Below, piece after piece: positions 3,389 through 19,407 of a stretch of 64,000 nt of DNA. The notes beneath the pieces were generated by a model. The model saw only the letters and a list, made by a program, of their open reading frames with translations, searched no databases and was not told the origin of the DNA. Where the stretch lies: NCBI GenBank assembly GCA_902777015.1, contig CACYSA010000001.1, forward strand, positions 50,525 to 114,524. The letters are read 5' to 3'. The stretch comes from an uncultured Erysipelotrichaceae bacterium (GTDB lineage: Bacteria > Bacillota_I > Bacilli_A > RFN20 > CAG-826). How positions within the stretch are numbered: the stretch's first letter is position 1; the number at the start of each line of letters is the position of its first letter. Position numbers and translations under genes: made by a program.

Positions 3389-3841
3389 TTAGTCTTTGTT
3401 GAAACTTTGGAAGATATCGCCAGTGAAGATTTCGTCTTCGCCTTCTCCTTCTTCCATGTCCTCATAATCCTCATTAGTAACATCAACTAAATTATCCGCG
3501 GCAATAAAGCGTGGATAGGATTCATTGAATTTACTGTAGCGATCATCTTGCGAATAATAGTAAAATTCAAGAATTTTATTAATCGCGACATCGCCGATAC
3601 TTTCTAAAATTAATTTCGCTACTTGGTCTTGTAAGACAGCGACTTTCTTAGGAGCGTGAACATGGATAATAATATTCCATGATGTTTGTTCCACGCCGTT
3701 ATGGAACACCATGTTTTCTGGTGCCACAAAAAGAATATCGTCTTCACTCATTTCGTATAACTTTGCTAAATTTGGAGTCATTTCACGAGATAAGCGTCCA
3801 ACGACGAATTGATCTAAACCATAAATGGTAATCGTAATCAT
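3389..3841 (-). CDS. Small acidic-tailed hypothetical protein, possibly DUF1904/tautomerase-like
   Basis: ORF trimmed to ATG 3841 (MITITIYGLDQ...), which has GAGGT 9 nt upstream. The ORF-track start at 3883 lies inside the priA-terminus repeat. The family call rests only on remembered sequence character. Confidence 0.5.
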   Translation of the reverse strand: MITITIYGLDQFVVGRLSREMTPNLAKLYEMSEDDILFVAPENMVFHNGVEQTSWNIIIHVHAPKKVAVLQDQVAKLILESIGDVAINKILEFYYYSQDDRYSKFNESYPRFIAADNLVDVTNEDYEDMEEGEGEDEIFTGDIFQSFNKD

Positions 3842-3862
3842 AAAAAATATACCTCGGGTATA

Positions 3863-3916
3863 AGTATAATACAGGAAATACATTTTTTATACTAAAAATT
3901 GTATGGATCAATATTA
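3863..3916 (-). repeat. Direct repeat copy C of the priA 3' terminus plus downstream spacer (putative distal island boundary)
   Basis: 3878-3916 (39 nt) is identical to 10289-10327, which holds the last 8 priA codons, the stop and 14 nt of spacer. A weaker match extends to 3863. Confidence 0.85.
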
Positions 3917-3933
3917 GTTATAGTTACCGATAG

Positions 3934-4446
3934 TTATTGAGTTGCTGAAGAATAATTATCTAATCTATCTTTAGTGCTTTTATTGCGACAATAATCATGA
4001 TAAATATCCAGCAAACTAAAAGCGTAATAATTAGCTTCTCTTTCAATGCTTCTACTGGTTCGATTTTTATCATCAAAAAAATACCATTGATAATAATATG
4101 TTAATAATTTTGTTAAGTTTAATAAAATATTGTCCATGTTTTCGATCGCTGACTTAGCTGCCACAAAAATACAAGGATAAACAATTAGATTCTCAGTTTT
4201 CTGTCCATTCACAAACTTTCCATAAATTCTTTTTCCACTTTCGTTAAGGAAAAATGAACAATTACGGATATAAATCTTACACCGAATAGGGAAAAAGTAC
4301 TTTTTTCTTAAAAAAGCAATATATTTTTTAATCAAGTTTCTTTCTTCAAAAGGATATTTTTTATCAAATAGCAATCTCAAGCCATGTTTTTTTGAATCCA
4401 AATAATACTTTTTACAATCAAAATCAATCCAAGAGTTATAGCTCAT
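3934..4446 (-). CDS. Candidate immunity protein for the RHS1 C-terminal toxin
   Basis: 170-aa ORF starting MSYNSW at ATG 4446. It overlaps the RHS1 stop (4436-4438) by 11 nt, with GGAGA upstream. The position immediately downstream of a polymorphic toxin is the only functional evidence. Confidence 0.55.
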   Translation of the reverse strand: MSYNSWIDFDCKKYYLDSKKHGLRLLFDKKYPFEERNLIKKYIAFLRKKYFFPIRCKIYIRNCSFFLNESGKRIYGKFVNGQKTENLIVYPCIFVAAKSAIENMDNILLNLTKLLTYYYQWYFFDDKNRTSRSIEREANYYAFSLLDIYHDYCRNKSTKDRLDNYSSATQ

Positions 4447-7400
4447 ATTCGTCTCCATCTCCAAATAAATAATCAAATTCATTTTCTATAAGCCATCCCA
4501 GAAAAAGTATATATTTCAAGTGGTCCCGACCAGGTGTATGGTGCTTAAGGGGTTTCCTTCCTCTTCTAAATTTGCATTTTGTATCAAACCTTTGTCTCGA
4601 TTTATTTTTTAATTCTCTTCCTTGCTTTTTTTGACCTGGCCTTGCATTTGGATCTTGTGGGTTAAATTCTTCGACTGTACAACCACTGGTTAGAACAGTT
4701 ATTTTCGTAAATTTATCTGTTGATTTGATTGTATCTTCACCGCTGAAATCTATCGTGTTAAAACTATCATTGATTGCATTTCCGATTTCGCTAATTGTTG
4801 AAGAAAGAGAATCTGAAAAGCTTTTTAAAGCTGGATATGCGATATAAACCAGTAATACACAACAAAGAAAAATACCAGAACAAGCGATTATAGTGAGTTC
4901 ATGTCCAAGAGGATCAAAATAGTTCATTGGATTATTGGCGCAGTAACAATATAAATTTAGCCCAAAAGAGTCTTTGTACTCTAAATATGCCCAATCATCA
5001 GGAGATATAAATCTACCTGTTTCTGGATCATAATATCTAGAAGTAAGCCAGTATAACTTTAAATCAGTATCGTAATAATAAGAACGATATCTAATTGGAT
5101 TAATATTACCAATGAATGAAGGGTCAGTATTCTCCAAACCATTAGAATCGAAAACTTTATGATAGCCCCACGCGTCGTAAACGTATCTTGCCACTACTTG
5201 GAAGCTACTATTTCTAATAGCAATAACATCTTGTTGAATATCCTTTTCGTAATAATAAACTTGATTATTAAAAACAAAGCCAATAACACCATTATGGGAA
5301 TTTAGATATAGTAAGGTATCAACATTATTTCTTACTTCACTGATGAGTGTTCCATTTATATAGTTATACTTTGTATAGTTTGTAGGACTGATAGATTTTA
5401 ATATCCTTTGTTTAAAACCATCATATTTAAAAGAAACTGTAACACTATTACTTACTTGATAAGTTTCTAGAAGCGTTCCTCTTGTCCAAGTTAAATTGTG
5501 ATTTCTATAAACAGTAGGATTACCATAGTTATCATATCGAATTGATTGATTATTATAAGAAGTCAATCTGTTAGGATGATTTGGATCATCATATGTGTAT
5601 AAATGCCAAGCTAAAATGTTACTAGGAGTTAGAGGCGATGAATAATCATATTCTTGTTTTGAAACAATGTTACCGTTATTATCGTAAGCAATGAAGAATC
5701 TACGATCTAATTGTTTGTTCCACTCTTCTATTAAACGTGAGTATTTATCATAAATATAGTCATTTGATTCTATTATTTGTGAAGATATCGACGTGAGATT
5801 AGAAATATTGCCAAGGCTATCATAGGTATAATGATCAGTCCTATGAAGCGTAGGAACATTGTTAGTGACACTATAATAAGAAACTGTCTTTGGAAGATTA
5901 TTACTTCTATTAGCGTCTGTTGATGAATGACAATAAGTAATTGTCTTTTTAAAGCCAGAATAGTTAATAAGAAGGGATTCTTCTGTTAACCGTGAATAGA
6001 CATCAACTTCATTGTCAACTTTTATAAAACTGCCACTATAAGCGATGGTTGATTTTTTTATAGTCTTCTCTAAGCCGTTGTTTGGATAATAAACGTAAGT
6101 GACATAGTATAAAGAGGCGACTGCCATCTCAACAAGGCGACGATTTTTTTCATATTCGTATGATACTGAAAGACCATTATAATCAACCTCTGTAGATATT
6201 AATTGGTTATAATAATCAAATTCATTCGTAATGTATGGGTTTAGATTTGGATCAAGTTGTGTAATGGCATTATCATTAATCGATATAGGATTATTGAAAT
6301 CATCGTATTCAAATTCTAGATATTCATCAGTGGTAACTCTATTTCTATTGTCAAACTCAGCATAACATTCATATCCATTTGCGTATCTAGTGTAATATCG
6401 ATAATTCTTCACAATGTCTTGATGAATGTTCGGAACGTATTCAATTTCTGCAATTTGATGATTATTATATTTGACTTCGCACACTTCTCCACCTGAAGAA
6501 TTGATGGTAAAAGTATTGTTGCTAGTTGCTAAAGAATAAGAGTCTTCACTTATGTAATTGTTATACTGGTCGAAGTAATTGGTGGCTGATGCTTTAAACT
6601 GAACGCTTTTTTCTCTTTCGCTTGTTATTGAATCAAAAGAACGTGACTCTATTAGACCATTAGGATACGTGATAACGTTGTTTCTTCCGAAACCGTTATA
6701 AGCATATGTCTTTGTGGATACGTTTTCACCGATTAGTTCACCACTACTTATGAGCTTATCCTCGTTTGAATTATCATAGGAGTTTTCGCTTAAAAAATAA
6801 TCATAACTGGAAACACTGCTAATTGTTTCTTCTAATAAGTTTCCACGATTGTCATAAGTATATTCTTCTACATAACTATCACTTCTTGTTACTTTTTGAA
6901 GGATATAATTCTCATCGTAATCATTTATATATGAATAACTATTAGTGCTACTTAGATGTTTAATTACTTCTTCCTCATAAAAGAAAGAGATATTACCACT
7001 TGAGAATGACTGGTTGTTATGCGAGATTCTTGTTACTTCAACAGTTGCATCATCCTTTGCATTTATTTTGTAAAAAGAAACATCAGCGGATGTACCTGGA
7101 CCAGCATATTTGATGCTTTTTGGACTATTTGACCAATTCATATTTAAGTAGTTTCTCATGCTAATGGTCAAAGAAGTAACGTTGTCCACTAGTTTTGTAA
7201 AATTATCAAACCAAAAATGATTAGAGCCACTACTATTGGTCCAGAACAATCTCTCGTTAGCGAGATAATCATCCATGGAGCAATGGTAATACTGCATATA
7301 GACACTTCCGTTTAAAAACACACCTTTGCCATTTGATAAAAAGTAATACGGTGTATCTCCATAAAAGAATACCGGACCATCAGTTCTAACGTTTGAGCAA

Positions 7401-8794
7401 AAAGCTTCGAACTCCCCAATTAGTGGCACTAGTTTAACTTCTTCAATAAAAACTGAATTTTGAAAATTCTTTGTGATGGTTAAATAAAACTTTCTTTGGG
7501 TGGAATGTCTAACACCAACTGGTGAGGCAAGAAGAGAGGTTCCATTTTTAAAATCTAGCATCGCTAAAGAATTACCATCATAGTCTTTTAATTCAACTGT
7601 GAGCGTGTCATTGTTTGCAAATTGGCCATAAATTCTAGCGTAGAACAAATATATTTTTTCTGATTGGATATTGCTGTTTCCGTTAACAATACTCTGATGA
7701 AACCATTCATTATTTGGCATGTCGTAGGTATATGATGACTGTTGGCCACCACTATTTAATTTAAAATGTATGATTTGATTATCATCGATGTCTTTTATTA
7801 AGCAATTAGCAAATTCTGAACTAAGTGTGAAATAACTGAGATTCCCTGAGCCTTGCGACTTTTGCGAAACTAATTGTTCTTGATTAAAATCATATAAAGT
7901 ATTAATTCCATGTGCATCTTTAACAGTCACCTTATTCTCGCCATAGTGATAATCAAAAGCATATCTAACATGATTTAAAGAAGAACTGAGAACTGAGACT
8001 TTATCGCTATAGTAATTAACAGTAAATGTATCGCCATTATCTAGTTCGAGTTCATATAAAAATGGGCTGCAGGTAAAGTTTTCTTCAATGATGTTATTAT
8101 CACCGATGTTTTTGGTGACTTTTGTCAAATAATAGTCGCTATTAAAAAGAACAGTAGATACTAGATTGTTATTGAAGTAAATCTCCACATGATTATAGTA
8201 ATAGGCAAAATAGACAGTTCTACCATAGTTATCACTGATATGGTCTATTTTTAACGAACCATTAGCACCGTCAATTAAATAAGATATGGAAACTTCCGCT
8301 GATAAAGACGATGTTATGTGTTGATGGATTAAGATAAGACGACCATATATGTCAAATTGTTGATAATTGCCATAATCATCAAATACTTTATAGCCACCAC
8401 TTTGGAGAGTTTCTAGCATTAAGCCAGAACCTTTTATATCGTAATATAGTGATGAGGAATTTATAGCTTTTTCAAACACATGTAAGAACCCATCTGAATC
8501 CTCATAATTATACTTATCAATGCTGGAATCATACTCGAGAAACACATGGTAATTTGTCTTGCATCCTTTAGGAAAACCAGTTGCATAATGTAGATATCCA
8601 ATAGAAACAGTATGCGTTTCGATATACTTTAATGATAAATTTAGTGGTAAATATCTTCCTGGCAAGGAGAATAGTTTTCGAGTAAAGTAAAGTTTTCCGT
8701 GTTCTAAATCGACCTTAAAAGAATAGTCTTTATAGTCGTGTTTTAAAAACTGCTTATATTTATCAAAATAGTAGCCAGCGAAATAGAAAGACAT
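4436..8794 (-). CDS. YD-repeat / RHS-family polymorphic toxin, 1452 aa
   Basis: Many YD repeats (YTYDNRGNLLEE, YTYDSLGNISN, IAYDNNGNIVSK, RYDNYGNPTVY). RHS core end is GNINPIRYRSYYYDTDLKLYWLTSRYYDPETGRFISPD...NPMNYFDPLGH, followed by a 154-aa variable C-terminus. GAGG lies 8 nt before the ATG at 8794. Confidence 0.9.
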   Translation of the reverse strand: MSFYFAGYYFDKYKQFLKHDYKDYSFKVDLEHGKLYFTRKLFSLPGRYLPLNLSLKYIETHTVSIGYLHYATGFPKGCKTNYHVFLEYDSSIDKYNYEDSDGFLHVFEKAINSSSLYYDIKGSGLMLETLQSGGYKVFDDYGNYQQFDIYGRLILIHQHITSSLSAEVSISYLIDGANGSLKIDHISDNYGRTVYFAYYYNHVEIYFNNNLVSTVLFNSDYYLTKVTKNIGDNNIIEENFTCSPFLYELELDNGDTFTVNYYSDKVSVLSSSLNHVRYAFDYHYGENKVTVKDAHGINTLYDFNQEQLVSQKSQGSGNLSYFTLSSEFANCLIKDIDDNQIIHFKLNSGGQQSSYTYDMPNNEWFHQSIVNGNSNIQSEKIYLFYARIYGQFANNDTLTVELKDYDGNSLAMLDFKNGTSLLASPVGVRHSTQRKFYLTITKNFQNSVFIEEVKLVPLIGEFEAFCSNVRTDGPVFFYGDTPYYFLSNGKGVFLNGSVYMQYYHCSMDDYLANERLFWTNSSGSNHFWFDNFTKLVDNVTSLTISMRNYLNMNWSNSPKSIKYAGPGTSADVSFYKINAKDDATVEVTRISHNNQSFSSGNISFFYEEEVIKHLSSTNSYSYINDYDENYILQKVTRSDSYVEEYTYDNRGNLLEETISSVSSYDYFLSENSYDNSNEDKLISSGELIGENVSTKTYAYNGFGRNNVITYPNGLIESRSFDSITSEREKSVQFKASATNYFDQYNNYISEDSYSLATSNNTFTINSSGGEVCEVKYNNHQIAEIEYVPNIHQDIVKNYRYYTRYANGYECYAEFDNRNRVTTDEYLEFEYDDFNNPISINDNAITQLDPNLNPYITNEFDYYNQLISTEVDYNGLSVSYEYEKNRRLVEMAVASLYYVTYVYYPNNGLEKTIKKSTIAYSGSFIKVDNEVDVYSRLTEESLLINYSGFKKTITYCHSSTDANRSNNLPKTVSYYSVTNNVPTLHRTDHYTYDSLGNISNLTSISSQIIESNDYIYDKYSRLIEEWNKQLDRRFFIAYDNNGNIVSKQEYDYSSPLTPSNILAWHLYTYDDPNHPNRLTSYNNQSIRYDNYGNPTVYRNHNLTWTRGTLLETYQVSNSVTVSFKYDGFKQRILKSISPTNYTKYNYINGTLISEVRNNVDTLLYLNSHNGVIGFVFNNQVYYYEKDIQQDVIAIRNSSFQVVARYVYDAWGYHKVFDSNGLENTDPSFIGNINPIRYRSYYYDTDLKLYWLTSRYYDPETGRFISPDDWAYLEYKDSFGLNLYCYCANNPMNYFDPLGHELTIIACSGIFLCCVLLVYIAYPALKSFSDSLSSTISEIGNAINDSFNTIDFSGEDTIKSTDKFTKITVLTSGCTVEEFNPQDPNARPGQKKQGRELKNKSRQRFDTKCKFRRGRKPLKHHTPGRDHLKYILFLGWLIENEFDYLFGDGDEYEL

Positions 8795-8803
8795 CTAAAA
8801 AAC

Positions 8804-9295
8804 CTCATAATCATTATAATTCACGGGATACATTTTTAATATTAAAAATTGTATGGATCGATATTAATCAATAATTCGTACTGACTGTTATAGGCGAATA
8901 GCTGTTGCATCTTTTCTAATATTTGATGGGCTTTATTTGGGTCACGATATTTCACGAGAATGTTTCTTAGATGGTAACCCATATCATAAGGTACATATGG
9001 AGTGGATGGGCCTAGTATTTGTCCTTCGTCCCCAAATTCATCATTAAGGAAGTCAACAACTTGATATGTATTTTCAATTTTGTTCGAGTTGTTTAAGTGA
9101 TGGAGGTTTTAAATAGAAAGAAATGACTCTATCATCTTTAACCTTCTTTAATGCTTGTCCAGCATCGTTGATTTCGATTTCTAATAAGACGTTTTTACCT
9201 TGATTACGAAGATCTTCAACAATGCTCTTTGGTGTACCGTATATGTTACCAACGAACTCTGCCTTTTTAAGAAGTTATTGCTTTATTATTCTTTT
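8804..9295 (-). pseudogene. Chimeric relic: internal gmk fragment fused to priA 3' fragment plus priA downstream spacer
   Basis: By hand alignment, 8804-9079 matches 10265-10540 (priA end plus 38-nt spacer) with about 16 mismatches in 276 nt. 9080-9263 matches 12682-12865 (inside gmk) with about 10 mismatches, and looser similarity runs to about 9295. The junction lies at an AATT microhomology. There is no start codon. Confidence 0.85.
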
Positions 9296-10233
9296 GCTTC
9301 TTCTATGGTTATTACTGGAAAGAATTTAAAGTAATTGAAATAAACATTAGAAAACATTTGGTATCCCGTTATTTCTTGTTTTATCATACTATAACCTATT
9401 ATTAAATAATCATATTTCCAATCCGCATTTGGATTGCCACGATATACAATGTATGAGATATTATCTTCAAAAGAATAATGCCAAAACGGTTTAAAATCAT
9501 ATTCCATCATAATCGAATAAATATCTTTTTTTATTAATTCAGCATCGAATAAAGAAACATTATAAGTATTGTCACGATTACGCAGTAATACTTTTTCTTC
9601 TATAAGGCATCTTCCGTCAATTAACTTACATTTCTCCTTGTAATACAATTCATCATCGAAGATTTTAATATCTTCGCTATCGCTAGGTATTTTTTCTAAT
9701 GTGTTATCAAACAAATCAAGTTCATAAAACCCAGAATTTGTTTTGTAATACATTTTTGAATCATAACCACTATTATATGATTCTATTTCTTCATCAAAAT
9801 AAAAAACAAATTCAAAATTATCAAAATTAGTATCTGTTTTTCCAATGCAATATTCTTTTTCTTGTTTATTGAAAAGAAAATAATAATGATTTTCTAAATA
9901 TACTAAAAATTTTACTATGTCATAGTCGCTGTTTTCTATTTTTAAACGCTGTTTAAAGTCATAATAGCTAATATAGTTTTCATATGAAAAATCTATATGA
10001 TGTGCATACTCTTTATCTAAAACACAAAAATTATCTCTACACAAAGGAACTAATCTTTGTTGGATTTGATTCTTTCTTTCCTTCCAAGAAGAATTAATTA
10101 AAGAGTCAATCGCTAGGCAAATTGCAACACCGATCGCCACAAGAGTAAAAGGGTTAAAAATTATCCAAATTGTAATCCATAAAGAGCGTGTTTTTTGCCA
10201 AAAAGTTTTTTCTTTTTTTGAATCAATTGCCAT
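9286..10233 (-). CDS. Hypothetical single-pass membrane protein (cassette gene X), Tyr/Asn/Phe-rich ectodomain
   Basis: 315 aa with an N-terminal TM helix (LWITIWIIFNPFTLVAIGVAICLAI). It lies between two copies of the priA-terminus repeat. Its last codons and stop lie in gmk-derived sequence. Confidence 0.7.
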   Translation of the reverse strand: MAIDSKKEKTFWQKTRSLWITIWIIFNPFTLVAIGVAICLAIDSLINSSWKERKNQIQQRLVPLCRDNFCVLDKEYAHHIDFSYENYISYYDFKQRLKIENSDYDIVKFLVYLENHYYFLFNKQEKEYCIGKTDTNFDNFEFVFYFDEEIESYNSGYDSKMYYKTNSGFYELDLFDNTLEKIPSDSEDIKIFDDELYYKEKCKLIDGRCLIEEKVLLRNRDNTYNVSLFDAELIKKDIYSIMMEYDFKPFWHYSFEDNISYIVYRGNPNADWKYDYLIIGYSMIKQEITGYQMFSNVYFNYFKFFPVITIEEAKE

Positions 10234-10302
10234 GATTATTCTTCTCTATCAAAATGTCTAATGACTCATAATCATTATAATTCACGGGATACATTTTTTA
10301 TA

Positions 10303-12498
10303 CTAAAAATTGTATGGATCAATATTAATCAAGAGTTCGTATTGACTGTTATAGGCGAATAGCTGTTGCATTTTTTCCAATATTTGATGGGCTTTATTTG
10401 GGTCGCGATATTTAACAAGGATGTTTCTTAGATGGTAACCCATATCATAAGGAACGTATGGAGTGGATGGTCCTAGTATTTGTCCTTCATCCCCAAATTC
10501 ATCATTAAGGAAGTCAACAACTTGATATGTATTTTCAATTAGATTCTCTTCGTTTTTAGCGCGTAAAGTCACACTCGCTAAATAGGCATATGGAGGATAA
10601 AATTGTAGTTTGCGCATTTCCATCTCTTTACGATAGAAAAGTTCATAATCTTGTCTAGCTGCGAACGTAATTGCGTAATGACTTGGAAGATATGTTTGAA
10701 TAATCGCGGTACCTGGTTTATCTTTTCTTCCAGATCTTCCAATGGCTTGAGTAATTAGTTGGAACGCTCTTTCGTTACTACGATAAGATGGCATTGATAA
10801 ACCAATGTCCGCTAAAACGATACCAACTAGGGTTACATCTGGGAAATCATGGCCTTTCGCTATCATTTGTGTACCAATTAAGACATTAGCTTCTTTCTTT
10901 CTAAATGCTTCAATTGTTTCAGGTATTTTGTTTCTATTTTTAGCACTATCACTATCTAGTCTTAATGTTTTAGCGCTCGGGAAAAGACGCTTAACTTCTT
11001 CTTCTATTTTTTCTGTTCCAAAGCCTGTTTTCATGAGATAGGAAGAGCCACAATCTGGACATGTTTCTTGCATTGGTTCAACATAATCACAGTGATGGCA
11101 TTTAAGCATGTTATCTCTTTTATGGTAGGTTAGTGCTATCCCACAAGTTGGACACTTAAAAACATGACCACAGTTACGACAAGTAACATGAGTGGAAAAT
11201 CCTCTTCTATTGATTAATAAGATAGCTTGTTCTTCTCTTGCTAATGTAATGTGAAGAACATCTCTTAAAGCATGAGAAAAGATATAACTATCCCTATCAA
11301 TGTTCTTATAATCAAGCATGTTCACAATCTTAGTGGTTGGTAGCTTTTGATTATTGATACGCTTATTTAAATAAAGCATATGATAGACGCCTTTTTGTCC
11401 TCTTGCTCTACTTTCTAAAGATGGAGTAGCGCTTGCTAAAAGGACTTTGGCGTTATTATATTTAGCGCGCATTATCGCTACTTCTCTAGCGTGATAGAAT
11501 GGTAAATTATCTTGTTTATATGATTCAGTATGTTCTTCATCTAGGATGATTAAGCCAATATTTTTAAGAGGAGCGAATATCGCACTTCGTACACCCACGA
11601 CTACTTTGCAGTCCCCATGATTAATCTTACGGTATTCATCATATTTTTCCGCAGGGGTTAATTCACTATGAAGAATAGCGACGTTATTTTGGAAACGATG
11701 GAGGAAATATTCCACCATCATGGGAGTTAATGATATTTCAGGAACAAGCATTAAAACTGATTTACCTTGTTTAAGAACTTGTTCGCTTAAAGATAGATAA
11801 ACTTCTGTTTTGCCGGACCCAGTAACACCCTCTAACAAGTAGACTAAATCATTAGAATTATTGAACTCATCAATAACCTTATTTTGATCATCGCTAAGTT
11901 TAGGAGGAGCACTATATTTATAATCAGGTATCTTTAACCTGCGTTTTTCTTCTTTAACAATCTTGATTCTTTGTTTTTCTAAAAGCTTTTCAATGATACT
12001 AGGAGATTTAACATCTCTTTTTAAAATACGACCATCGTTTTTAATTAATCTTAATAATTCGATTTGTTTATTTGTTAAATCAGATTCATCATCATTAATA
12101 ACTTCTAGATATTGATCATACGCAATTTTAGGAGCTTTTAATGATGTCTTTTTTGGTGATAAAGAAGGAGGTAACATTGATTGAAGAACACTAATCTTAG
12201 GCACTAGATAATATGAAGATACTTCATCTAATAAAGATAATAATTCTTCGTTTAATAATGGTTCATCATCAATGACATCTTTTATTTCAGAAATAGAGAA
12301 ACCCTTTTCTTCTTCATATTGTTCTATTGATTTATTAGTTTCTTCTACCTTTACTACGTAACCAATAATGTCTCGATGATTAAAATCAAGTAAGACACGG
12401 ATACCTTTCTTTAGAATTTTGCCACCATTATAAAAATAAGAAAAAGGACGGTTTAATGAGCTTTTAGCATATTCAATGAGAACTTCCACTACTTGCAT
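10303..12498 (-). CDS. priA: Primosomal replication restart helicase PriA
   Basis: 731 aa with Walker A GVTGSGKTEVY, DEEH box, and the Cys-rich zinc region CRNCGHVFKCPTCG...CHHCDY...CPDCGS. Confidence 0.95.
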   Translation of the reverse strand: MQVVEVLIEYAKSSLNRPFSYFYNGGKILKKGIRVLLDFNHRDIIGYVVKVEETNKSIEQYEEEKGFSISEIKDVIDDEPLLNEELLSLLDEVSSYYLVPKISVLQSMLPPSLSPKKTSLKAPKIAYDQYLEVINDDESDLTNKQIELLRLIKNDGRILKRDVKSPSIIEKLLEKQRIKIVKEEKRRLKIPDYKYSAPPKLSDDQNKVIDEFNNSNDLVYLLEGVTGSGKTEVYLSLSEQVLKQGKSVLMLVPEISLTPMMVEYFLHRFQNNVAILHSELTPAEKYDEYRKINHGDCKVVVGVRSAIFAPLKNIGLIILDEEHTESYKQDNLPFYHAREVAIMRAKYNNAKVLLASATPSLESRARGQKGVYHMLYLNKRINNQKLPTTKIVNMLDYKNIDRDSYIFSHALRDVLHITLAREEQAILLINRRGFSTHVTCRNCGHVFKCPTCGIALTYHKRDNMLKCHHCDYVEPMQETCPDCGSSYLMKTGFGTEKIEEEVKRLFPSAKTLRLDSDSAKNRNKIPETIEAFRKKEANVLIGTQMIAKGHDFPDVTLVGIVLADIGLSMPSYRSNERAFQLITQAIGRSGRKDKPGTAIIQTYLPSHYAITFAARQDYELFYRKEMEMRKLQFYPPYAYLASVTLRAKNEENLIENTYQVVDFLNDEFGDEGQILGPSTPYVPYDMGYHLRNILVKYRDPNKAHQILEKMQQLFAYNSQYELLINIDPYNF

Positions 12499-12510
12499 AT
12501 TTTACCGTCT

Positions 12511-13083
12511 TTAGTCTTTATCAAATTCCTTTAAGATTTTTATGATTTCTTCACCAGCGCGTTTAATACGATCGTTCATAATAACGAAATCGTAATTCTT
12601 TGCTTTTTCCATTTCAGCTTCCGCTTTAGCTAAACGCTTTTGGATGACTTCTTCAGTTTCTGATTTTCTTTTTCTAATTCTTTGTTCGAGTTGTTTGAGT
12701 GATGGCGGTTTTAAATAGAAAGAAATGACTCTATCATCTTTAACCTTCTTTAATACTTGTTCAGCACCGTTGATTTCGATTTCTAATAAGACGTTTTTGC
12801 CTTGATTACGGAGATCTTCAACAATGCTCTTTGGTGTACCATATCGGTTACCAACGAACTCTGCCCATTCTAAGAAATTATCGTTATCAATATTCTTTTG
12901 GAATTCTTCTTGAGAAACGAAGTAATATTCAACCCCATGTGTTTCTGTAGCGCGTGGCGCTCTTGTGGTCATGGAAATTGAAAAGACCATTGGGAAAGCA
13001 TCACGGTTCATAATATATTTTCTAACCGTGCCTTTACCGACACCAGATGGTCCACTAAGAATAATCAATAACCCTTTTTTCAT
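12511..13083 (-). CDS. gmk: Guanylate kinase
   Basis: 190 aa with P-loop GPSGVGKGT and YYFVS...FLEWAEFVGNRYGT. It lies 12 nt upstream of priA. Confidence 0.93.
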   Translation of the reverse strand: MKKGLLIILSGPSGVGKGTVRKYIMNRDAFPMVFSISMTTRAPRATETHGVEYYFVSQEEFQKNIDNDNFLEWAEFVGNRYGTPKSIVEDLRNQGKNVLLEIEINGAEQVLKKVKDDRVISFYLKPPSLKQLEQRIRKRKSETEEVIQKRLAKAEAEMEKAKNYDFVIMNDRIKRAGEEIIKILKEFDKD

Positions 13084-13248
13084 ATTATCAGTTATTTTAA
13101 ATGATATTTATTAATAAGGCAACATCTTCATTACCCTATTTTTACGCTACTAACGGACAATTCGTGTGTTTTGTATGCGAGTTTTATAAAGTACACTTTA
13201 TTTTCTCACATATCTTTTCAAAAGTGTTTTTGCTATCATAATAATTGT

Positions 13249-14619
13249 ATGAATTATTATTCTTATTCTGCATTTAAAGAAATTGTTAAAGAATTAAAAG
13301 AGAAGATTGTTGGCTGTCGTATTAATAACATTACGGTCATTAATTCTCATGACTTTTTATGCACCTTATCAATGATTAAAGATGAGAAGTTATTAATATC
13401 ATTAAACCATCAACATCCTTTTGTTTCTTTAATTGATGTAAAGAAAGTTGAACCAACAATTACTGGTTCGCTTAATGAAGCGCTTAGAAAGCATCTTAAA
13501 GATGCCTTTATTGTCGATATATCTCTAGATAATGATGATAGAATTGTTCATTTCATTATTCAAAAAGCTAATGATTATTATGAGAAAGTTGTTACCCATT
13601 TATATTTAGAATGCATTCCTCAAAGAGCAAACCTTATCTTTGTTAATGAAGATAATAAGATTATCCATGCTTTGCATTATTCTGGTATCACTACTTCTAG
13701 ACCAATACTTAATGATTTAAGTTATGAATATCCTAATAAGGGTGTTTTAAAAGATGAAGAAGTACCTACTTTAGAAGATATTAAGAAACAAGCAATTAAC
13801 TATTATGAAAATGCCTTATTAGTGCACAAGAAAGAAAAGTTCACACCACTTTATCGTTATATCAAATCTAGAATCAAATCATTAGAAAAGAAATCTAAAG
13901 TTTTAGCAGTAGAAATTGATGAGGCTAAAAGCCATCTTAACGATGCAGAAATTGGTAACTATTTATTAGCGTTTCAATATGATCAAAATGAACTTAATAA
14001 TTATTTAAAAGAAAACAATATATCTTTAGATAACTCTAAATCTTTAGTGGAAAATGCGAATAGTTATTTTAAGAAATATAAAAAGAGTAAAAGAACGATT
14101 GAGATGGCTAATATTGAAGTAGATAAAGCTAAAGAAGAAAGCGATTATTTAACTTATTTATTAAGTAGTTCACAGTTTATGAATGATGATGAACTCTTAG
14201 CGCTTTCTCAAGAACTACTTCCTAAGCAACACCTTAAAAAGAAACTAACTCCTATTAGATGTTCATATATCATCTATGATAACGTGAAGATTTCTTTTGG
14301 TAAGAACGCTTCAAGTAATAACGAATTAACATTTAAAATCGCTCATAAAGATGATACATATCTTCATATTAAAGATTATCATGGAGCGCATGTTATTATT
14401 CATGATTCTAATCCCTCTAATGAAGTTAAACTCGTAGCGGCGGAACTCTGCTTGATTCTTTCCAATAAATCCGCGGGTGATATCATGATTACTAACATGA
14501 AAAACGTTAAAAAAGGCCACGCTTTAGGCGAGGCTAATTTGCTTAATTATTCAATTATTACTTTAACTTCTATTAGAGAAGCCACTATATCCTTAATTAG
14601 TAATAAGAAAGATTACTAA
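13249..14619 (+). CDS. rqcH: NFACT-family protein (fibronectin-binding protein A / RqcH-like ribosome quality control factor)
   Basis: ORF trimmed to ATG 13249 (MNYYSYSAFKEIV...). It has an N-terminal NFACT-N-like region, a coiled-coil middle and a C-terminal NFACT-R/DUF814-like motif HIKDYHGAHVII. No clear SD sequence. Confidence 0.75.
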   Translation: MNYYSYSAFKEIVKELKEKIVGCRINNITVINSHDFLCTLSMIKDEKLLISLNHQHPFVSLIDVKKVEPTITGSLNEALRKHLKDAFIVDISLDNDDRIVHFIIQKANDYYEKVVTHLYLECIPQRANLIFVNEDNKIIHALHYSGITTSRPILNDLSYEYPNKGVLKDEEVPTLEDIKKQAINYYENALLVHKKEKFTPLYRYIKSRIKSLEKKSKVLAVEIDEAKSHLNDAEIGNYLLAFQYDQNELNNYLKENNISLDNSKSLVENANSYFKKYKKSKRTIEMANIEVDKAKEESDYLTYLLSSSQFMNDDELLALSQELLPKQHLKKKLTPIRCSYIIYDNVKISFGKNASSNNELTFKIAHKDDTYLHIKDYHGAHVIIHDSNPSNEVKLVAAELCLILSNKSAGDIMITNMKNVKKGHALGEANLLNYSIITLTSIREATISLISNKKDY

Positions 14620-14623
14620 GGCT

Positions 14624-14902
14624 TTAAAAATCGTTGTACAAGTATTTTATAACACCACAAATTAAAGCAATGAGATTAAAGTCATCTTCCAAACAGTTAT
14701 AATCATCACTATTAATAATATCTCTATCTATTGTACAAACGTTGCCTTTGTATACATAAAAATCCAATTGTCGATTATTTTTATCTTTTATAGTCAACGC
14801 CATGGTTGAAAGAGACTTTTTGTTGTATTGAAAATCTAAAACCGAACAACCATAAAAGTACAAAAACCATTCAATCAATTCTCTCATCTTTTTCTTTCTC
14901 AT
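14624..14902 (-). CDS. Candidate immunity protein for the RHS2 C-terminal toxin
   Basis: 92 aa from ATG 14902 (MRKKKMRELIEW...). The start overlaps the RHS2 stop as TAATG. Positional evidence only. Confidence 0.55.
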   Translation of the reverse strand: MRKKKMRELIEWFLYFYGCSVLDFQYNKKSLSTMALTIKDKNNRQLDFYVYKGNVCTIDRDIINSDDYNCLEDDFNLIALICGVIKYLYNDF

Positions 14903-17900
14903 TAAAACATTCTCCAATCTATTCCATGTTCAATCAAAAAATCAATTTCATCCCATAAAGCTGAAGTGGGCTTAGCTGCTCTTATACCAGTAACGGCAAA
15001 TTCACTTCCAAGCGTGATTGCATCGTTGAGAAAAGTCGCATTCAACTTCCATTGTTCGCACAAATCTAATGAGAAATAGACTTCTTTTGGTATGTCAAAA
15101 GCGCTCGCTCCAATATATTTTGCCACATTTAAATATGCCGGAAAGCTTCCAAGAACTGTAATCGCTTTTATAGGAAGAACATAATATTTTGTTATGGAAA
15201 AGCCAAGTATTCCGGTAATTTCGGTAATCATTGATCCAGCAACATATCCAATTATACCTCCAACAACAGCACCGCCAAGCGCTCCTAGTGCGGTTAGACC
15301 GAATAATTCCCAGCCTTCTTTCCCTTCGTTTTTCATTTTATTGTAAGTAATTACCCCGCCAATGGTGGCACCAATTAGCGCACCAGCGATTAAACCAAGC
15401 ATAGCAAGAGATATTGCCAAATGCCCATCTTCATCCATCAACATCACCGGATTATTATTACAATAAGCATATAGATGGAAACCTGAGATATTGTCTTGAT
15501 TTAAATATTGGAATTCATCTGGAGAAATGAACTGCATGATAGATGGATCATAATATCTGGCTAATAGATAATATAGGCCTGTTTCAACGTCATAATAATA
15601 GCCTTTATATCTAATCGGATTGATATTACCAACTGATGACATATTAGTGTCTTCATCACCTGTAGCAGTTAAAACTTTGTGATTACCCCAAGCGTCATAA
15701 ATATACCTAGTAACAAAGCTTCCCATTTTGTCAACGATACCAATTATTTGATTAAATGGATTTTTAACATAACGATAAGAAGTGCTAGATGAACCATTAT
15801 AGTAATTAAAGCCCACTATGCCGGTTTCATCATAGAAATACCTGATTTCTTTATTATCACTTCTCTTTTCGCCAATTAGTCTATTGTCATGATAATAGTA
15901 AGTAATCGTTAAGGAGTTATTGATCTTCTTTTGATATCTTCTATTTTGATAATCATAAGTAAACTGCACTGTTTGGTTTCCTTTAACGAACTGACTTAAT
16001 AATGTACCCCTAGTCCATTGATAAGTTTCATTTCCTTTTGTCAAACGATTACCGTATGCATCATATGTAAAAGTGATGTTACCAAAAGAAATCAATCTAC
16101 CCTTGATATCATAAGTTAACGAATTATTGCCAACTGTTGATAATCTTCCATATGTATCATAAGTATACGAACGATTATATTCAGAAAAAGAAACATTGTA
16201 TTCTTGTGTTATACGATTAAATCCATCGTAACTATACGCAAAGCGAGGGAATGATTCTCCATTAGTGTAAATACTAGAAAGATTGCCAAAAATATCATAG
16301 CTATAGGATTCTAAATAAACAGGATAAATTATCGTATTATTCGTTTCGTCTTCATTAATACCAAATGTAAAATTATATGGCAAAGAAGAACCATTAATAT
16401 ATGTTATGTCACTAATAAGACAGTTGGTGTTAACAGCAGCAAATACACTATAATGCTTTTTGACTCTACCGAAGTTATCTTTTTGAATATTGAACGTGTG
16501 AATAGTTACATTATGAAAATTATGATTCTCTAGCCTTATTTCAGTTTCATCAACACTGCGTATAAAAGACATATCATATAAGCCGAAATCATATATTGTT
16601 CCGTTAATGTAATAGCCTTCATCAATGATAAATTCATCGTTATTAAAATTAGTTGTAATCAAAGAATTATCGATTTGATCATAAGTGAACGATGTCACCA
16701 AACCACTAGCATCATTATGTTTATCAGTTATAGAAGTTAGATTTGAAGCAAAATAAGATTCACCACTATTTGTATATGAATAATCAACCTTGGTTTCACT
16801 ATTAAGACGAATATGGGTTAACTTTTTATAGTTGTTCCGTTGATAGACAAGCTGCAGGGAAGAAGGATAGTTGATAATAGTACTATTGCCGTTTTCCAAG
16901 ATAGAATACAAAGAAGAATAAGTATCATCACTTTCTAAAACTTTGTAAGTGATACCTTTTTCCATAGTGCTTTGAACAGCTTGATAATTTGTTGCACCAT
17001 TAGAAAAACTCTGAGTATTGTTAACATAGTTAATTCTATTAGTGTTTGTGCATTCAATATTATCATTTAAGCAAAAATTGATCTTAACTGGACCATCACC
17101 ATTAATGGTATATATGTATTTTTTTGAATAATAACTGTTTAAAATAGTTGATCCGCTAACAGTGTTTCTAACGATTGATGACGGACCGTATCTACCATAA
17201 GTTATATCAACACTATTTTTATCACTTGTTTTTCTAGAGATAAAACCTTTGTTGTTTTCGCTCGCCTCATAAAGAACGATAGTCTCTATTCCATCAGTGG
17301 ATATAACTTTCTTAAGTTCTCCATTAGTGAAGTATTCATATGTAGTTGTATTTGTGGACACAACATGAGCCACTAAAGGATTGCCACTCCATTTATATTC
17401 AGTGCTTGTCTTTTCAATTAGTTTTTCATAGTAATCGTAGGTTTTTATTTCTTCACTTATCTTACGAAATACACCATCAACGTATGTGCCATATCTAGTT
17501 GTTATTACTAGAGTATCATCGATAAAAGAATAATAAACTCTAGATGCAGTATCGTTCTCGGAAGATAATATTGTTCTATCTGGAGAAACGGTTTCAAAAT
17601 ACCAAACAAAGTCTTGTTCAGAATCAATATCGAAATTAGAGCAATTAAAAGAATTAAAAATAATATCGTTACCGTTAAATAGACAGAAGCGGAAATTATA
17701 AGAGTCCACTACTCGACCATCGTTAAAATATAACGGGTGAGCGTGAGGGGAATAGTTTCCATATAGTAAATCAAAACAATTATGTTGGTGTGAAATTGTA
17801 TTAAGAAGATCGTTTGGTGACATTCTTATTTCACCAGTAACATCAATAATCCTACTTGGTGTTTGATCGTAATAAGAAGGATAAAGACCAACAGAAGTCA

Positions 17901-19407
17901 CTTCATCAAATGAGTGAGTTCCATTAGCGTCTTTAAAAAATAAAGTTGTTTTTGCTTTTTTATCAAAATAGATGTCACCAATATCAACACTGACACTGTT
18001 GCAGTTTTCATTAATAAATGACAAATAAATTGTTAAAGAGGAGATATTATTAATATTTCTAGTTATTGGGACTTCCACTAACTGATATTTATCGAATTGA
18101 AGAACATTAATATCGACCGGCGAAGAAGATATGGTGTTTGATCCAGCAATGACTGCTCTTACTCTTTTAGATGTGTAGTCGTTTAATCTTAAATAAAACC
18201 TTAATACAAAATATCTATAATTGTTTAATAAAGAAATGGCATTATAAGAAAAATACAAAGAAATTGGTGAAGTTGCTCTAATAAATCTATGGTTGTTAAC
18301 ATAGATATGTTGGGTATTGCCTGTAATAGGAATATAAACACCAGTTTCTTTATATAATGTTGTAAAATCATCGGAAGATAAACCATTAAAAACCGCGGTG
18401 ATCTGAGCATTTTTATCCATTGAATAGGAATAAAATACACCGTTTTTAATGACACTCACCTCATTAGTGGTCACCCAATCATCCGTTCTTAAGCTATAAC
18501 CGATGCGCTGAATTGTTTCTATAGCGGTAAAAAGACCGTCACTTGGATGATAATATCCTTTAGATAGAGCTGTCACCAAAAAGTCATTGTATAAGTTTAT
18601 ATAATCGTAATGGATTTCATAAACATCATGAGTTTGATGATTGTCTAAATAGTCAATCCTGTCGAAAGATGAATCTGGTATTGAAAGATCGCTGTTATAA
18701 TGAAACGAATATAATTCTCTTTCATCACTAATACCAGCATCTATAGACATGCTTGTTAAAAAGTTAGATGTGTATTCCAAATGAAGCCTATTTGCAATAG
18801 CAATATTGTGATATAAGGTGATATATGAAAGTTTTGAATCGGTATAAGCAAAATTGATATGCGTATGAGTATCTCTTTCATCACAAACTCTTGTTAAAAA
18901 GCCGTTTGCATCATATACGATTGTTTTGATGTTAGTGTCGTCAAAGCCGTTAACAATTTGAACAAGTCGTCCATAATCGTCAAAATACAGCTTATCGTTT
19001 TTAGAATTAACGATTTCCGCCATAAAAGAGCTATCTTCATCAAAATATAAGTAGAGATTGCTTTCATTACAAAAATACAAGGAAGTTTTTACATAATAAA
19101 ATGTGTGTATATAACCAAAATCATCAATGTATTTATAAATTGGATGTTCGTTATCATCCTCACCATCTTCTATTAAGAATTGATGATAATTTGTTTTAAA
19201 TCTATCCGGAAGTCCTAAACAACGATTCGATATGCTTTGAGGCATTCTTGAATGATATACAAGATTAAAACTTAATTCATATGAGTCCCTACTAACAGAA
19301 ATGGCATCACTAATAAATCTCATTGATTGGTCAAACAAATTAAAGAAAGGATTGTCACCAATCTCTGTACTTGAAATATTCTGTCTAGGGAGAAGTTCAG
19401 TGGGCAT
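14902..19407 (-). CDS. YD-repeat / RHS-family polymorphic toxin, 1501 aa (paralogue of 4436-8794)
   Basis: YD repeats ([34 protein letters not shown]). RHS core end is [38 protein letters not shown]...[12 protein letters not shown], followed by a 172-aa variable C-terminus. Confidence 0.9.
   Translation of the reverse strand: [1501 protein letters not shown]

What the first reader, a model, noticed from the sequence alone, without database searches (positions are those of the whole stretch)
8804..9295. Chimeric gmk'-'priA relic 1.5 to 3.5 kb from the intact genes
On the minus strand this segment reads as an internal piece of gmk (roughly codons 59-133, matching 12682 to about 12900). It is joined directly to the last ~80 codons of priA plus the spacer (matching 10265-10540). 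Both parts are close to but not identical with the intact genes, at about 94-95 percent identity by my count. The junction (9076-9082) sits at an AATT microhomology. A second copy of the whole gmk-priA block must therefore once have existed here or on a donor molecule. It then lost about 2.3 kb by internal deletion and was truncated at the gmk side by gene X. The divergence shows the event is not very recent, or that the copy came from a related strain.
Basis: seen in the sequence. Interest (0 to 1): 0.65.

Follow-up and report, generated by a model that had tools for sequence, protein, structure and literature searches.

The report
Decaying gmk–priA scar in toxin island
The segment is a real, non-functional leftover of a second copy of two housekeeping genes (gmk and priA). 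It was left behind when DNA from a related strain was stitched in next to priA while a rumen bacterium stacked an immunity-like gene and an RHS toxin module, so it is an informative scar but of an ordinary kind.

Summary
On the minus strand, 9304-9080 is gmk codons 59-134 and 9079-8842 is priA codons 654-731 plus stop. These are followed by a copy of the priA-downstream spacer that runs up to the RHS start codon (E = 3e-85 and 1e-121).

The window is a rumen Bacilli MAG. The relic lies inside a 6.4-kb insertion (ORF315, relic, RHS toxin, immunity gene) between priA and the next operon gene, which are adjacent in 78 other species-level genomes.

It is not an assembly artefact. Both junctions recur base-for-base in more than 10 independent assemblies from several sequencing projects (cattle and sheep rumen among them).

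All 14 sense-codon differences from the intact priA are synonymous. They are polymorphisms also seen in other strains' functional alleles, so the copy is an allele from a related strain, not an in-place paralogue that drifted. It is also old. Carriers about 4-5% apart share both junctions but have decayed independently, with changes at invariant Gmk residues, other replacements and a frameshift.

The best reading is a duplicative integration of conspecific chromosomal DNA, via a circular intermediate or homology-facilitated illegitimate recombination. That event kept an orphan immunity-like gene while a toxin module sat alongside it. A 2,140-bp deletion followed.

This is a known kind of event. 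Interest is modest.

The parts
9080..9304 (-). gmk' pseudogene fragment, gmk codons 59-134. The first ~47 nt are degenerate.
   Evidence: BLASTN match to 12681-12910. Alignments. Replacements R80I, G->D, E->G and V->A fall at residues invariant in 17 relatives.
8842..9079 (-). 'priA pseudogene fragment, priA codons 654-731 plus stop.
   Evidence: BLASTN match to 10303-10540. 14 changed sense codons plus the stop codon (TAG->TAA), with no amino-acid change. The only start codon in this frame gives a 46-aa ORF that is not on record as a called gene.
8795..8841 (-). Copy of the priA-downstream intergenic spacer. It supplies the GAGG ribosome-binding site and the start-codon position of the RHS gene.
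   Evidence: Colinear with the native priA-ORF150 spacers of 13 species up to the ATG. The 24-nt 'spAB' part is identical to 10265-10288.
9303..9304 (.). Joint J1: the last sense codon of ORF315 fused in frame to gmk codon 59, with a 1-nt overlap.
   Evidence: A goat-rumen contig (L099, protein P0013) has the native ORF315 end ...VITI-stop and diverges from the window exactly at 9304.
9079..9080 (.). Joint J2: gmk codon 134/135 joined to priA codon 653/654. 2,140 bp are missing.
   Evidence: Contigs spanning it with 0 mismatches occur in runs X1, X2 and X6.
9286..10233 (-). ORF315, a membrane-anchored protein of an RHS-immunity-like family. Here it is an orphan, and it ends in 5 codons (EEAKE) taken from gmk'.
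   Evidence: Homologues lie directly downstream of RHS toxin genes in L012 (24.7% identity) and L092 (48% identity). No Pfam family matches.
10265..10540 (-). Parent copy A: 3' end of the intact priA plus spacer.
12681..12910 (-). Parental segment of the intact gmk.
4436..8794 (-). RHS/YD-repeat toxin gene (1452 aa) that starts right after the relic's spacer.
   Evidence: Pfam RHS_repeat hit. Homology to an RHS gene found in other contexts breaks exactly at the ATG, 8794.
3934..4482 (-). Putative cognate immunity gene (182 aa), overlapping the RHS 3' end.
   Evidence: Assigned by position only. It is 100% conserved in all 10 contigs that carry it. No Pfam family matches.
3865..3916 (-). Copy C: the last 25 nt of priA plus the native spacer, immediately upstream of the next operon gene. 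It is the right-hand direct repeat of the insertion.
   Evidence: In relatives without the insertion, both window flanks map onto one 52-nt site.
3389..3841 (-). ORF150 (listed as 164 aa from an upstream ATG), the conserved gene that normally follows priA directly.
   Evidence: Adjacent to priA in 78 other species-level genomes. Called as 150 aa in L094.

Best explanation
The segment is a non-functional recombination scar. It is what remains of a second, allelic copy of the gmk-priA block.

**Shown**
- The window's species carries a lineage-specific 6.4-kb insertion between priA and ORF150. Its content is ORF315 (an orphan immunity-like gene), the relic, an RHS toxin gene and its immunity gene.
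- Each cargo gene is preceded by a copy of the priA end plus the intergenic spacer.
- The relic's priA part is a different allele from the resident priA, of the kind that segregates among conspecific strains.
- Joints J1 and J2 arose once. They are inherited or co-transferred with the island.
- The relic is decaying independently in different carriers.

**Inferred**
1. A chromosomal fragment running from gmk codon 59 through priA and the spacer to the end of ORF315 came from a strain with ORF315 downstream of priA.
2. Its two ends were joined, giving J1 with 1 nt of overlap and an in-frame fusion. This may have been a circular molecule or an equivalent unequal or illegitimate exchange.
3. It then integrated by a single homologous crossover in the gmk-priA homology of a strain with another allele. 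This gave: gmk-priA-spacer-ORF315-J1-gmk'(59-190)-priA-spacer-(RHS-immunity)-ORF150.
4. The redundant second copy, a 2.6-kb direct repeat, was then trimmed by a 2,140-bp deletion (J2).
5. The in-frame ORF315::Gmk' fusion was closed by small indels that create TAATAA five codons after J1.

The net effect was to keep ORF315 while an RHS toxin-immunity module sits next to it. This parallels the displacement and stacking model proposed for effector-immunity arrays. The relic's spacer part now provides the ribosome-binding site and start context of the RHS gene. The gmk' and 'priA parts themselves do nothing.
For: **Homology and anatomy:**

**The insertion is lineage-specific**
- L002-L005 have priA directly followed by ORF150, and both window flanks map to one 52-nt site there.
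- The same adjacency holds in 78 species-level genomes.
- Empty sites also exist in near-identical strains L081, L089 and L090.

**Allelic origin**
- All 14 changed sense codons are synonymous, and the stop changes TAG to TAA. The chance of this under random substitution is 1e-10 to 4e-8.
- Four functional alleles are mutually 92.8-94.5% identical at the DNA level with identical protein.
- The relic variants are shared with other strains' intact alleles and with outgroups.
- The closest intact allele to the relic is that of L094, at 96.1%.

**Single origin and age**
- J1 and J2 are identical in L082, L084, L085, L087, L091, L094, L095, L100 and L104.
- Decay differs by lineage:
  - R80I in the window and L082 only.
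  - G->D, E->G and V->A in the cattle group only.
  - I654N, D670N and Q705H in L091.
  - Three replacements plus a 2-nt deletion in L094.

**Native partner states exist**
- ORF315 with its own stop codon, followed by a paralogous gene, occurs in L099.
- ORF315 plus relic without the RHS module occurs in L094 and L095.

**ORF315 family is in the immunity position** after RHS genes.

**The island moves or recombines as a unit.** It is 99-100% identical among carriers whose intact priA is only 91.7-98.6% identical to the window's.

**Not an artefact.** Junction-spanning contigs appear in independent runs and studies, and the depth of relic-specific unitigs is close to that of the flanks.

**Literature.** Kirchberger et al. 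2017 (PMC5361080) proposed homology-facilitated illegitimate recombination for stacking effector-immunity modules while retaining the old immunity gene.
Against: - The order of events cannot be fixed. The state without RHS (L094) may be either ancestral or a later deletion between the 52-nt repeats.
- A strain with an intact priA followed directly by this RHS, the postulated partner state, was not found. All 10 contigs carrying the immunity gene already have the relic.
- Both joints have only 1 nt of strict overlap. To my knowledge, microhomologies reported for homology-facilitated illegitimate recombination are usually longer.
- No circular intermediate has been observed.
- The cluster of 8 substitutions and 3 indels in the first 47 nt of gmk' is only explained by conjecture, either selection to close the fusion frame or error-prone joining.
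- One low-depth sheep contig (run X13) crosses J2 but diverges at 9115, which the model does not predict.
Confidence: 0.72

Rival explanations
1. In-place tandem duplication of gmk-priA within one genome, followed by deletion and neutral divergence, with no DNA from another strain.
For: The two pieces keep the order and strand of the parent genes and lie only 1.2-3.4 kb from them. The gmk' part does show neutral-type decay.
Against: - About 6% divergence in 'priA without a single amino-acid change is not neutral drift (P about 1e-9).
- The variants are shared with other strains' functional alleles and with outgroups.
- The relic is closer to L094's intact allele (96.1%) than to its own genome's (94.2%).
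- A pure tandem duplication would also duplicate ORF315, which is present only once.
Confidence: 0.1
2. Site-specific cassette system. The priA end, with its AT-rich inverted repeat, is an attachment site. Toxin and immunity cargo integrate there as circles through a host recombinase. The relic is chromosomal DNA picked up by an aberrant excision.
For: - Each cargo is flanked by direct repeats of the priA end plus spacer.
- The left boundary of copy C is the same to within 1 nt behind two different cargoes, in the window and in L001.
- The inverted repeat ATACAATTTTT-AGTAT-AAAAAATGTAT spans the stop codon in all copies.
- The switch from variable priA to the conserved island falls at the priA stop.
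Against: - No integrase or recombinase lies in the island, and none appears among the Pfam-annotated neighbours.
- The site is unoccupied in 78 other species-level genomes.
- The near-identity of the 52 nt is explained by cross-species conservation of that sequence.
- The relic's homology extends 276 + 226 nt beyond any plausible core site.
- The hairpin is weak (-4 to -5 kcal/mol).
Confidence: 0.12
3. The relic is retained because it is functional, either as a PriA C-terminal peptide (46-aa ORF 8842-8982) or as a leader or regulatory RNA for the RHS gene.
For: - There are no amino-acid changes in the window's 'priA part.
- The relic is 99-100% conserved among RHS carriers.
- Two metatranscriptome contigs are of relic type, one of them spanning J2.
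- The spacer part does carry the conserved GAGG and start context now used by RHS.
Against: - Other carriers have replacements in 'priA (L091, L094) and a frameshift in gmk' (L094).
- Synonymous-only differences also cover codons upstream of the only start codon.
- The 46-aa product is not on record as a called gene.
- Conservation among RHS carriers is no higher than in the rest of the island.
- RNA depth is 2-3, and DNA carry-over cannot be excluded.
Confidence: 0.05
4. Metagenomic mis-assembly that joins reads of two co-existing strains.
For: The window is a MAG from samples that hold several strains. Unitigs break at the repeats.
Against: - J1 and J2 are crossed by contigs with 0 mismatches in X1, X2 and X6.
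- The whole architecture recurs in assemblies from different samples, studies and assemblers.
- Depth of relic-specific unitigs matches the flanks (X1: 7-7.4 against 9-9.7).
- A 1-nt overlap cannot mislead a 31-mer assembler.
Confidence: 0.01

Closest known systems
Orphan-immunity arrays formed by displacement or stacking of effector-immunity modules (Vibrio cholerae T6SS, Kirchberger et al. 2017, PMC5361080; Rhs orphan modules, Poole et al. 2011, PMC3150448; Koskiniemi et al. 2014, PMC3967940)
   Same: A toxin-immunity module sits next to a retained immunity-like gene that lacks its toxin. The locus is polymorphic among close strains. Homologous flanks combined with an illegitimate joint are invoked.
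   Different: - The scar here is made of housekeeping genes (gmk, priA), not toxin 3' ends.
- The retained gene lies upstream of the new module.
- The locus is inside a conserved housekeeping operon of a rumen Firmicute, not a secretion-system cluster.
- Toxin and immunity activities are untested.
Homology-facilitated illegitimate recombination in transformable bacteria (de Vries & Wackernagel 2002; Prudhomme et al. 2002; Meier & Wackernagel 2003, as cited in PMC5361080)
   Same: Integration of DNA with one homologous side and one non-homologous joint. Duplications or deletions occur at the border.
   Different: Joint overlaps here are only 1 nt. The topology needs a circular intermediate or a sister chromosome. 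Competence of this organism is unknown.
Campbell-type (single-crossover) integration of a circular DNA, which duplicates the homology region
   Same: It predicts exactly two direct copies of gmk59-priA flanking the inserted ORF315, with the circle-closing joint (J1) between them.
   Different: It is known mainly from plasmids, suicide vectors and aberrantly excised elements. No replicon or excision function is seen here.
Integrative elements that target the 3' end of a gene and carry a copy of it (att duplication)
   Same: Direct repeats of the target gene's 3' end flank the insertion. The target gene stays intact.
   Different: There is no integrase, the site is empty in 78 related species, and the middle repeat extends into 500 nt of core-gene sequence.

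Membership tests
Duplicated (non-processed) pseudogene fragment | Significant homology to a functional gene in the same genome. | tested here: met
   E = 1e-121 for priA and 3e-85 for gmk.
Duplicated (non-processed) pseudogene fragment | Disabled coding capacity: truncation, frameshift, no start codon. | tested here: met
   Both pieces are internal or terminal fragments. There are indels in gmk'. The gmk frame stops one codon after J2.
Duplicated (non-processed) pseudogene fragment | Relaxed selective constraint. | tested here: met
   Replacements fall at Gmk residues invariant in 17 relatives. Replacements and frameshifts are lineage-specific in L091 and L094. The window's own 'priA part shows none.
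RHS/YD-repeat polymorphic toxin locus with cognate and orphan immunity genes | Large protein with RHS/YD repeats. | tested here: met
   Pfam PF05593 matches the 1452-aa and 1501-aa ORFs.
RHS/YD-repeat polymorphic toxin locus with cognate and orphan immunity genes | Variable C-terminal toxin domain after the core-ending DPxG motif, with a small immunity gene immediately downstream. | tested here: inconclusive
   The sequence ...NYFDPLGH is followed by ~190 aa with no family match, then an overlapping 182-aa ORF. Activity was not tested.
RHS/YD-repeat polymorphic toxin locus with cognate and orphan immunity genes | Orphan immunity gene, meaning a homologue of a gene found directly after a toxin gene elsewhere. 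| tested here: met
   ORF315 homologues directly follow RHS genes in L012 and L092. This is positional evidence only.
Product of homology-facilitated illegitimate recombination | One side joined by homology and the other by an illegitimate joint at a short microhomology. | tested here: inconclusive
   J1 and J2 have 1 nt of strict overlap. The homologous side is inferred from allele mosaics.
Product of homology-facilitated illegitimate recombination | Uptake of foreign or conspecific DNA by a competent recipient. | not testable with these tools
   Allelic origin is shown. The route of DNA entry is unknown.
Site-specific integrative element (att duplication) | An element-encoded or dedicated recombinase. 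| tested here: not met
   No recombinase domain in the island ORFs or in the annotated neighbours.
Site-specific integrative element (att duplication) | Direct repeats at both ends that share a core with the empty site. | tested here: met
   A 52-nt repeat, and a single copy in empty sites.
Site-specific integrative element (att duplication) | Recurrent use of the same site in independent lineages. | tested here: not met
   78 other species-level genomes have priA directly followed by ORF150.

The most novel reading that the evidence does not exclude
The priA-end plus intergenic module may be a reusable docking site. On this reading, toxin and immunity cargo of these rumen Bacilli travel as circular chromosomal excision products. 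These re-integrate by a single crossover, or through a host recombinase acting on the AT-rich inverted repeat. The gmk'-'priA relic would then be the fossil of one aberrantly excised circle that carried flanking housekeeping genes, in effect a specialised-transduction-like pick-up without a phage.
Probability: 0.12. Interest if true: 0.6.

Novelty: new member of a known kind. Interest (0 to 1): 0.3.

Why it matters
Scars made of core-gene fragments are rare direct records of how polymorphic toxin and immunity islands are assembled.

This one shows several things in an uncultured rumen lineage:
- Cargo was stacked by a duplicative exchange between conspecific chromosomes, not by a dedicated mobile element.
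- The immunity-like gene was kept.
- The island then spread among strains whose flanking priA differs by up to 8%.

It also gives practical markers (J1 and J2) for tracking this island in rumen metagenomes.

It does not reveal a new kind of system.

Tried and rejected
- **Looking for an intact donor allele.** I scanned metagenome contigs with a relic-specific 27-mer. It returned only one contig, an empty-site strain with yet another priA allele. No donor with an intact relic-type priA followed by RHS was found.
- **Looking up the 46-aa relic ORF as a called gene.** It is not on record.
- **Looking for an RHS-only state through the immunity protein.** All 10 contigs already carry the relic.
- **Promoter and terminator scan of 3700-13300.** Counts equal the shuffled expectation, so there is no support for a promoter in the relic.
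- **Pfam searches** of the RHS C-termini, ORF315, the 182-aa ORF and the 2099-aa ORF, run at E <= 1. No credible family was found, apart from a glycine zipper in the second RHS tail.
- **The idea that ORF315 natively precedes gmk, as in L012, so that J1 would be a simple deletion.** I rejected this as the primary model. In the same species ORF315 with its native stop is followed by a paralogous gene, not gmk, and is already preceded by the priA end plus spacer.
- **RNA evidence.** It is too thin to say more than 'possibly transcribed'.
- **Three 'other letters' at 9153, 9159 and 9165 in several runs.** These turned out to be the intact gmk laid onto the relic, not relic variants.

Full report
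**1. Observation**

BLASTN of 8700-9400 against the rest of the window finds two strong matches:
- 8804-9079 matches 10265-10540 (276 nt, 94.2%, ungapped, E = 1e-121).
- 9079-9304 matches 12681-12910 (90.4%, 3 gaps, E = 3e-85).

The parent ORFs are guanylate kinase (12511-13083, minus) and PriA (10303-12498, minus) by Pfam.

Read on the minus strand, the segment has three parts:
- gmk codons 59-134.
- priA codons 654-731 plus stop, joined directly to the gmk piece.
- 38 nt that match the sequence after the intact priA.

The gmk'/'priA joint (J2) is at 9079/9080. Its strict overlap is 1 nt. The AATT reading needs a 2-nt gap. The two parental points are 2,140 bp apart. A third, 52-nt copy of the priA end plus spacer lies at 3865-3916.

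**2. Context**

The window is a rumen Bacilli/Erysipelotrichaceae-like MAG.

In relatives L002-L005, priA is followed directly by the next operon gene. That gene is ORF150, which ORF listing extends to 164 aa. Both flanks of the window map onto a single 52-nt site in those relatives. The same adjacency holds in 78 other species-level genomes.

So 10275-3917 is a lineage-specific 6.4-kb insertion. On the minus strand it contains:
- ORF315 (10233-9286).
- The relic.
- A 1452-aa RHS-repeat protein (8794-4436).
- An overlapping 182-aa ORF in the immunity position.

ORF315 homologues lie immediately after RHS toxin genes in L012 (RHS 3951-8294, then ORF 8296-9222) and in L092 (48% identity). ORF315 is therefore best read as an orphan immunity-like gene, on positional evidence.

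The spacer after the relic is colinear with the native priA-ORF150 spacer of 13 species. The colinearity runs through a conserved TGtATTATAcT element, the GAGG and the ATG. The RHS start codon thus sits where ORF150's start normally sits.

**3. Not an artefact**

Contigs with 0 mismatches cross J2 in runs X1, X2 and X6. Others cross the ORF315/gmk' joint (J1) in X1, X3 and X6. Relic-specific unitigs have the same depth as the flanks.

The full architecture recurs in ENA and Logan assemblies from different samples and sequencing projects, with cattle and sheep rumen among them: L082, L084, L085, L087, L091, L094, L095, L100 and L104.

**4. Origin of the copy**

In the 78 priA codons, all 14 changed sense codons are synonymous, and the stop changes TAG to TAA. 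With 20-30% of random changes expected to be synonymous, the chance of this is 1e-10 to 4e-8.

Functional priA alleles of the window, L001 and L081, together with the relic, are mutually 92.8-94.5% identical in DNA and identical in protein. The relic's variants are a mosaic of polymorphisms seen in other strains' intact genes and in outgroups. Its nearest intact allele is that of L094, at 96.1%.

The divergence therefore arose in functional genes of different strains, not by decay in place.

**5. Age and decay**

J1 and J2 are identical in all carriers, including L091 and L094, which differ from the window by about 4-5% over the locus. Decay since then is lineage-specific:

| Lineage | Change |
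|---|---|
| Window and L082 only | AGA to ATA (R80I) |
| Cattle group, not L091 or L094 | G->D, E->G, V->A in the invariant NGAEQV motif |
| L091 | I654N, D670N, Q705H in 'priA |
| L094 | Three replacements in 'priA and a 2-nt deletion in gmk' |

The relic is therefore a true pseudogene that predates the split of its carriers. Alternatively, it travelled with the island.

Among RHS carriers the island is 99-100% identical, while the adjacent intact priA is only 91.7-98.6% identical to the window's. The switch falls at the priA stop codon. This shows recombination at the island border.

**6. The gmk-side joint (J1)**

A goat-rumen contig (L099) has ORF315 ending ...VITI-stop, followed by a paralogous membrane-protein gene. 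It departs from the window exactly at 9304.

In the window the stop codon is replaced by gmk codon 59 onward, in frame. A 2-nt deletion and TAATAA end the ORF after five extra codons (EEAKE).

The first ~47 nt of gmk' carry 8 substitutions and 3 indels that all relic lineages share. This is far denser than anywhere else in the relic. I can only conjecture the cause: selection to close an ORF315::Gmk' fusion, or error-prone joining.

**7. States of the locus seen in the species complex**

| State | Example contigs |
|---|---|
| Empty | L081, L089, L090 |
| ORF315 variant plus 25-nt priA end | L001 |
| ORF315 plus paralogue | L099 |
| ORF315 plus relic, then ORF150 directly | L094, L095 |
| ORF315 plus relic plus RHS plus immunity | Window and at least 7 others |
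| RHS only | Not found |

**8. Mechanism (inferred)**

The simplest path needs one illegitimate joint, one homologous crossover and one deletion.
1. A fragment running from gmk codon 59 to the end of ORF315, from a strain with ORF315 downstream of priA, has its ends joined (J1).
2. It integrates by a single crossover in the gmk-priA homology of a strain with another allele. That duplicates gmk59-priA around ORF315.
3. The 2,140-bp J2 deletion then removes most of the redundant copy.

A linear-DNA version is equivalent: a homologous anchor on one side, an illegitimate joint on the other, and a sister chromosome. Whether the RHS module was already in the recipient or came later by ordinary homologous replacement cannot be decided. 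The RHS-less state may be ancestral, or it may be a deletion between the 52-nt repeats.

The outcome retains an immunity-like gene while a toxin-immunity module sits beside it. This matches the logic proposed for effector-immunity arrays, where homology-facilitated illegitimate recombination was invoked (PMC5361080).

**9. Rivals**

- In-place duplication with drift is contradicted by the synonymous-only, population-shared differences.
- A site-specific cassette system is not excluded. In its favour are the repeats at each cargo, the same copy-C boundary in two contexts, and an inverted repeat over the stop codon. Against it are the absence of a recombinase, the empty site in 78 species, and a relic that extends 500 nt beyond any core.
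- A functional role for gmk' or 'priA is contradicted by decay in other carriers. Only the spacer part is plausibly co-opted as the RHS translation-start region. Promoter scans gave nothing above chance, and RNA evidence is thin.

**10. Verdict**

I refine it to 'an allelic copy from a related strain, and an old shared scar'.

It is a new instance of a known kind of event. It is useful as a marker and as a mechanistic record, but it is not a new system.

Noticed in passing
window 14624-19407 (minus strand): A second RHS gene (1501 aa, with a glycine-zipper tail) and a 97-aa ORF are inserted between the SpoU methylase and the NFACT gene. They are absent from L002-L005 and L094. L094 has only a 96-aa distant homologue of the 97-aa ORF at that position (26% identity), which is another orphan-immunity pattern.
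   Followed up: partly
L006 3706-9191 and L012 3951-9222: In two related species an RHS gene (about 60% identical in its N-terminal region to the window's 1452-aa RHS) and its downstream gene sit between NFACT and gmk. This is a third insertion point around the same gmk-priA block.
   Followed up: partly
window 10290-10320, 8829-8859, 3874-3904: An AT-rich inverted repeat, ATACAATTTTT-AGTAT-AAAAAATGTAT, spans the priA stop codon in all three copies and is conserved in other species. The predicted hairpin is weak (-4 to -5 kcal/mol). Its role is unknown.
   Followed up: partly
window 9263-9304: The first ~47 nt of gmk' carry 8 substitutions and 3 small indels, shared by all relic lineages. The rest of the relic differs from the intact genes by about 5-6% and has no indels in the window. 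The window also has one A fewer than L091, L094 and the X5 contigs in the A-run at 9263.
   Followed up: partly
run X13 (sheep), contig laid on window 9047-9115: A low-depth contig crosses J2 but diverges from the window at 9115, 36 nt into gmk'. This suggests a further rearranged relic variant in a sheep lineage.
   Followed up: no
L084 1066-1190: A 58-nt tandem duplication covers the leader and first codons of ORF315 in one carrier. It could be real or an assembly slip.
   Followed up: no
L100 5673-10047: In one carrier the RHS gene is split into 455-aa and 997-aa ORFs, so the toxin gene may be inactivated there while the immunity gene is intact.
   Followed up: no
window 38163-44462 (minus strand): A 2099-aa ORF has no Pfam match at E <= 1. 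It is followed by a UPF0029-family gene.
   Followed up: no
runs X5 and X8, contigs ending at window 8794: An RHS gene 96% identical over its first 500 nt has a different upstream sequence, starting exactly at the ATG. The RHS coding sequence therefore also exists at another locus in related strains.
   Followed up: no
window 3389-3883: The 164-aa ORF is probably 150 aa, starting at 3841 (MITITIYG...). The extra 14 codons run through the spacer. The gene has only a weak DUF1904 hit but is syntenic with priA across the whole order.
   Followed up: partly
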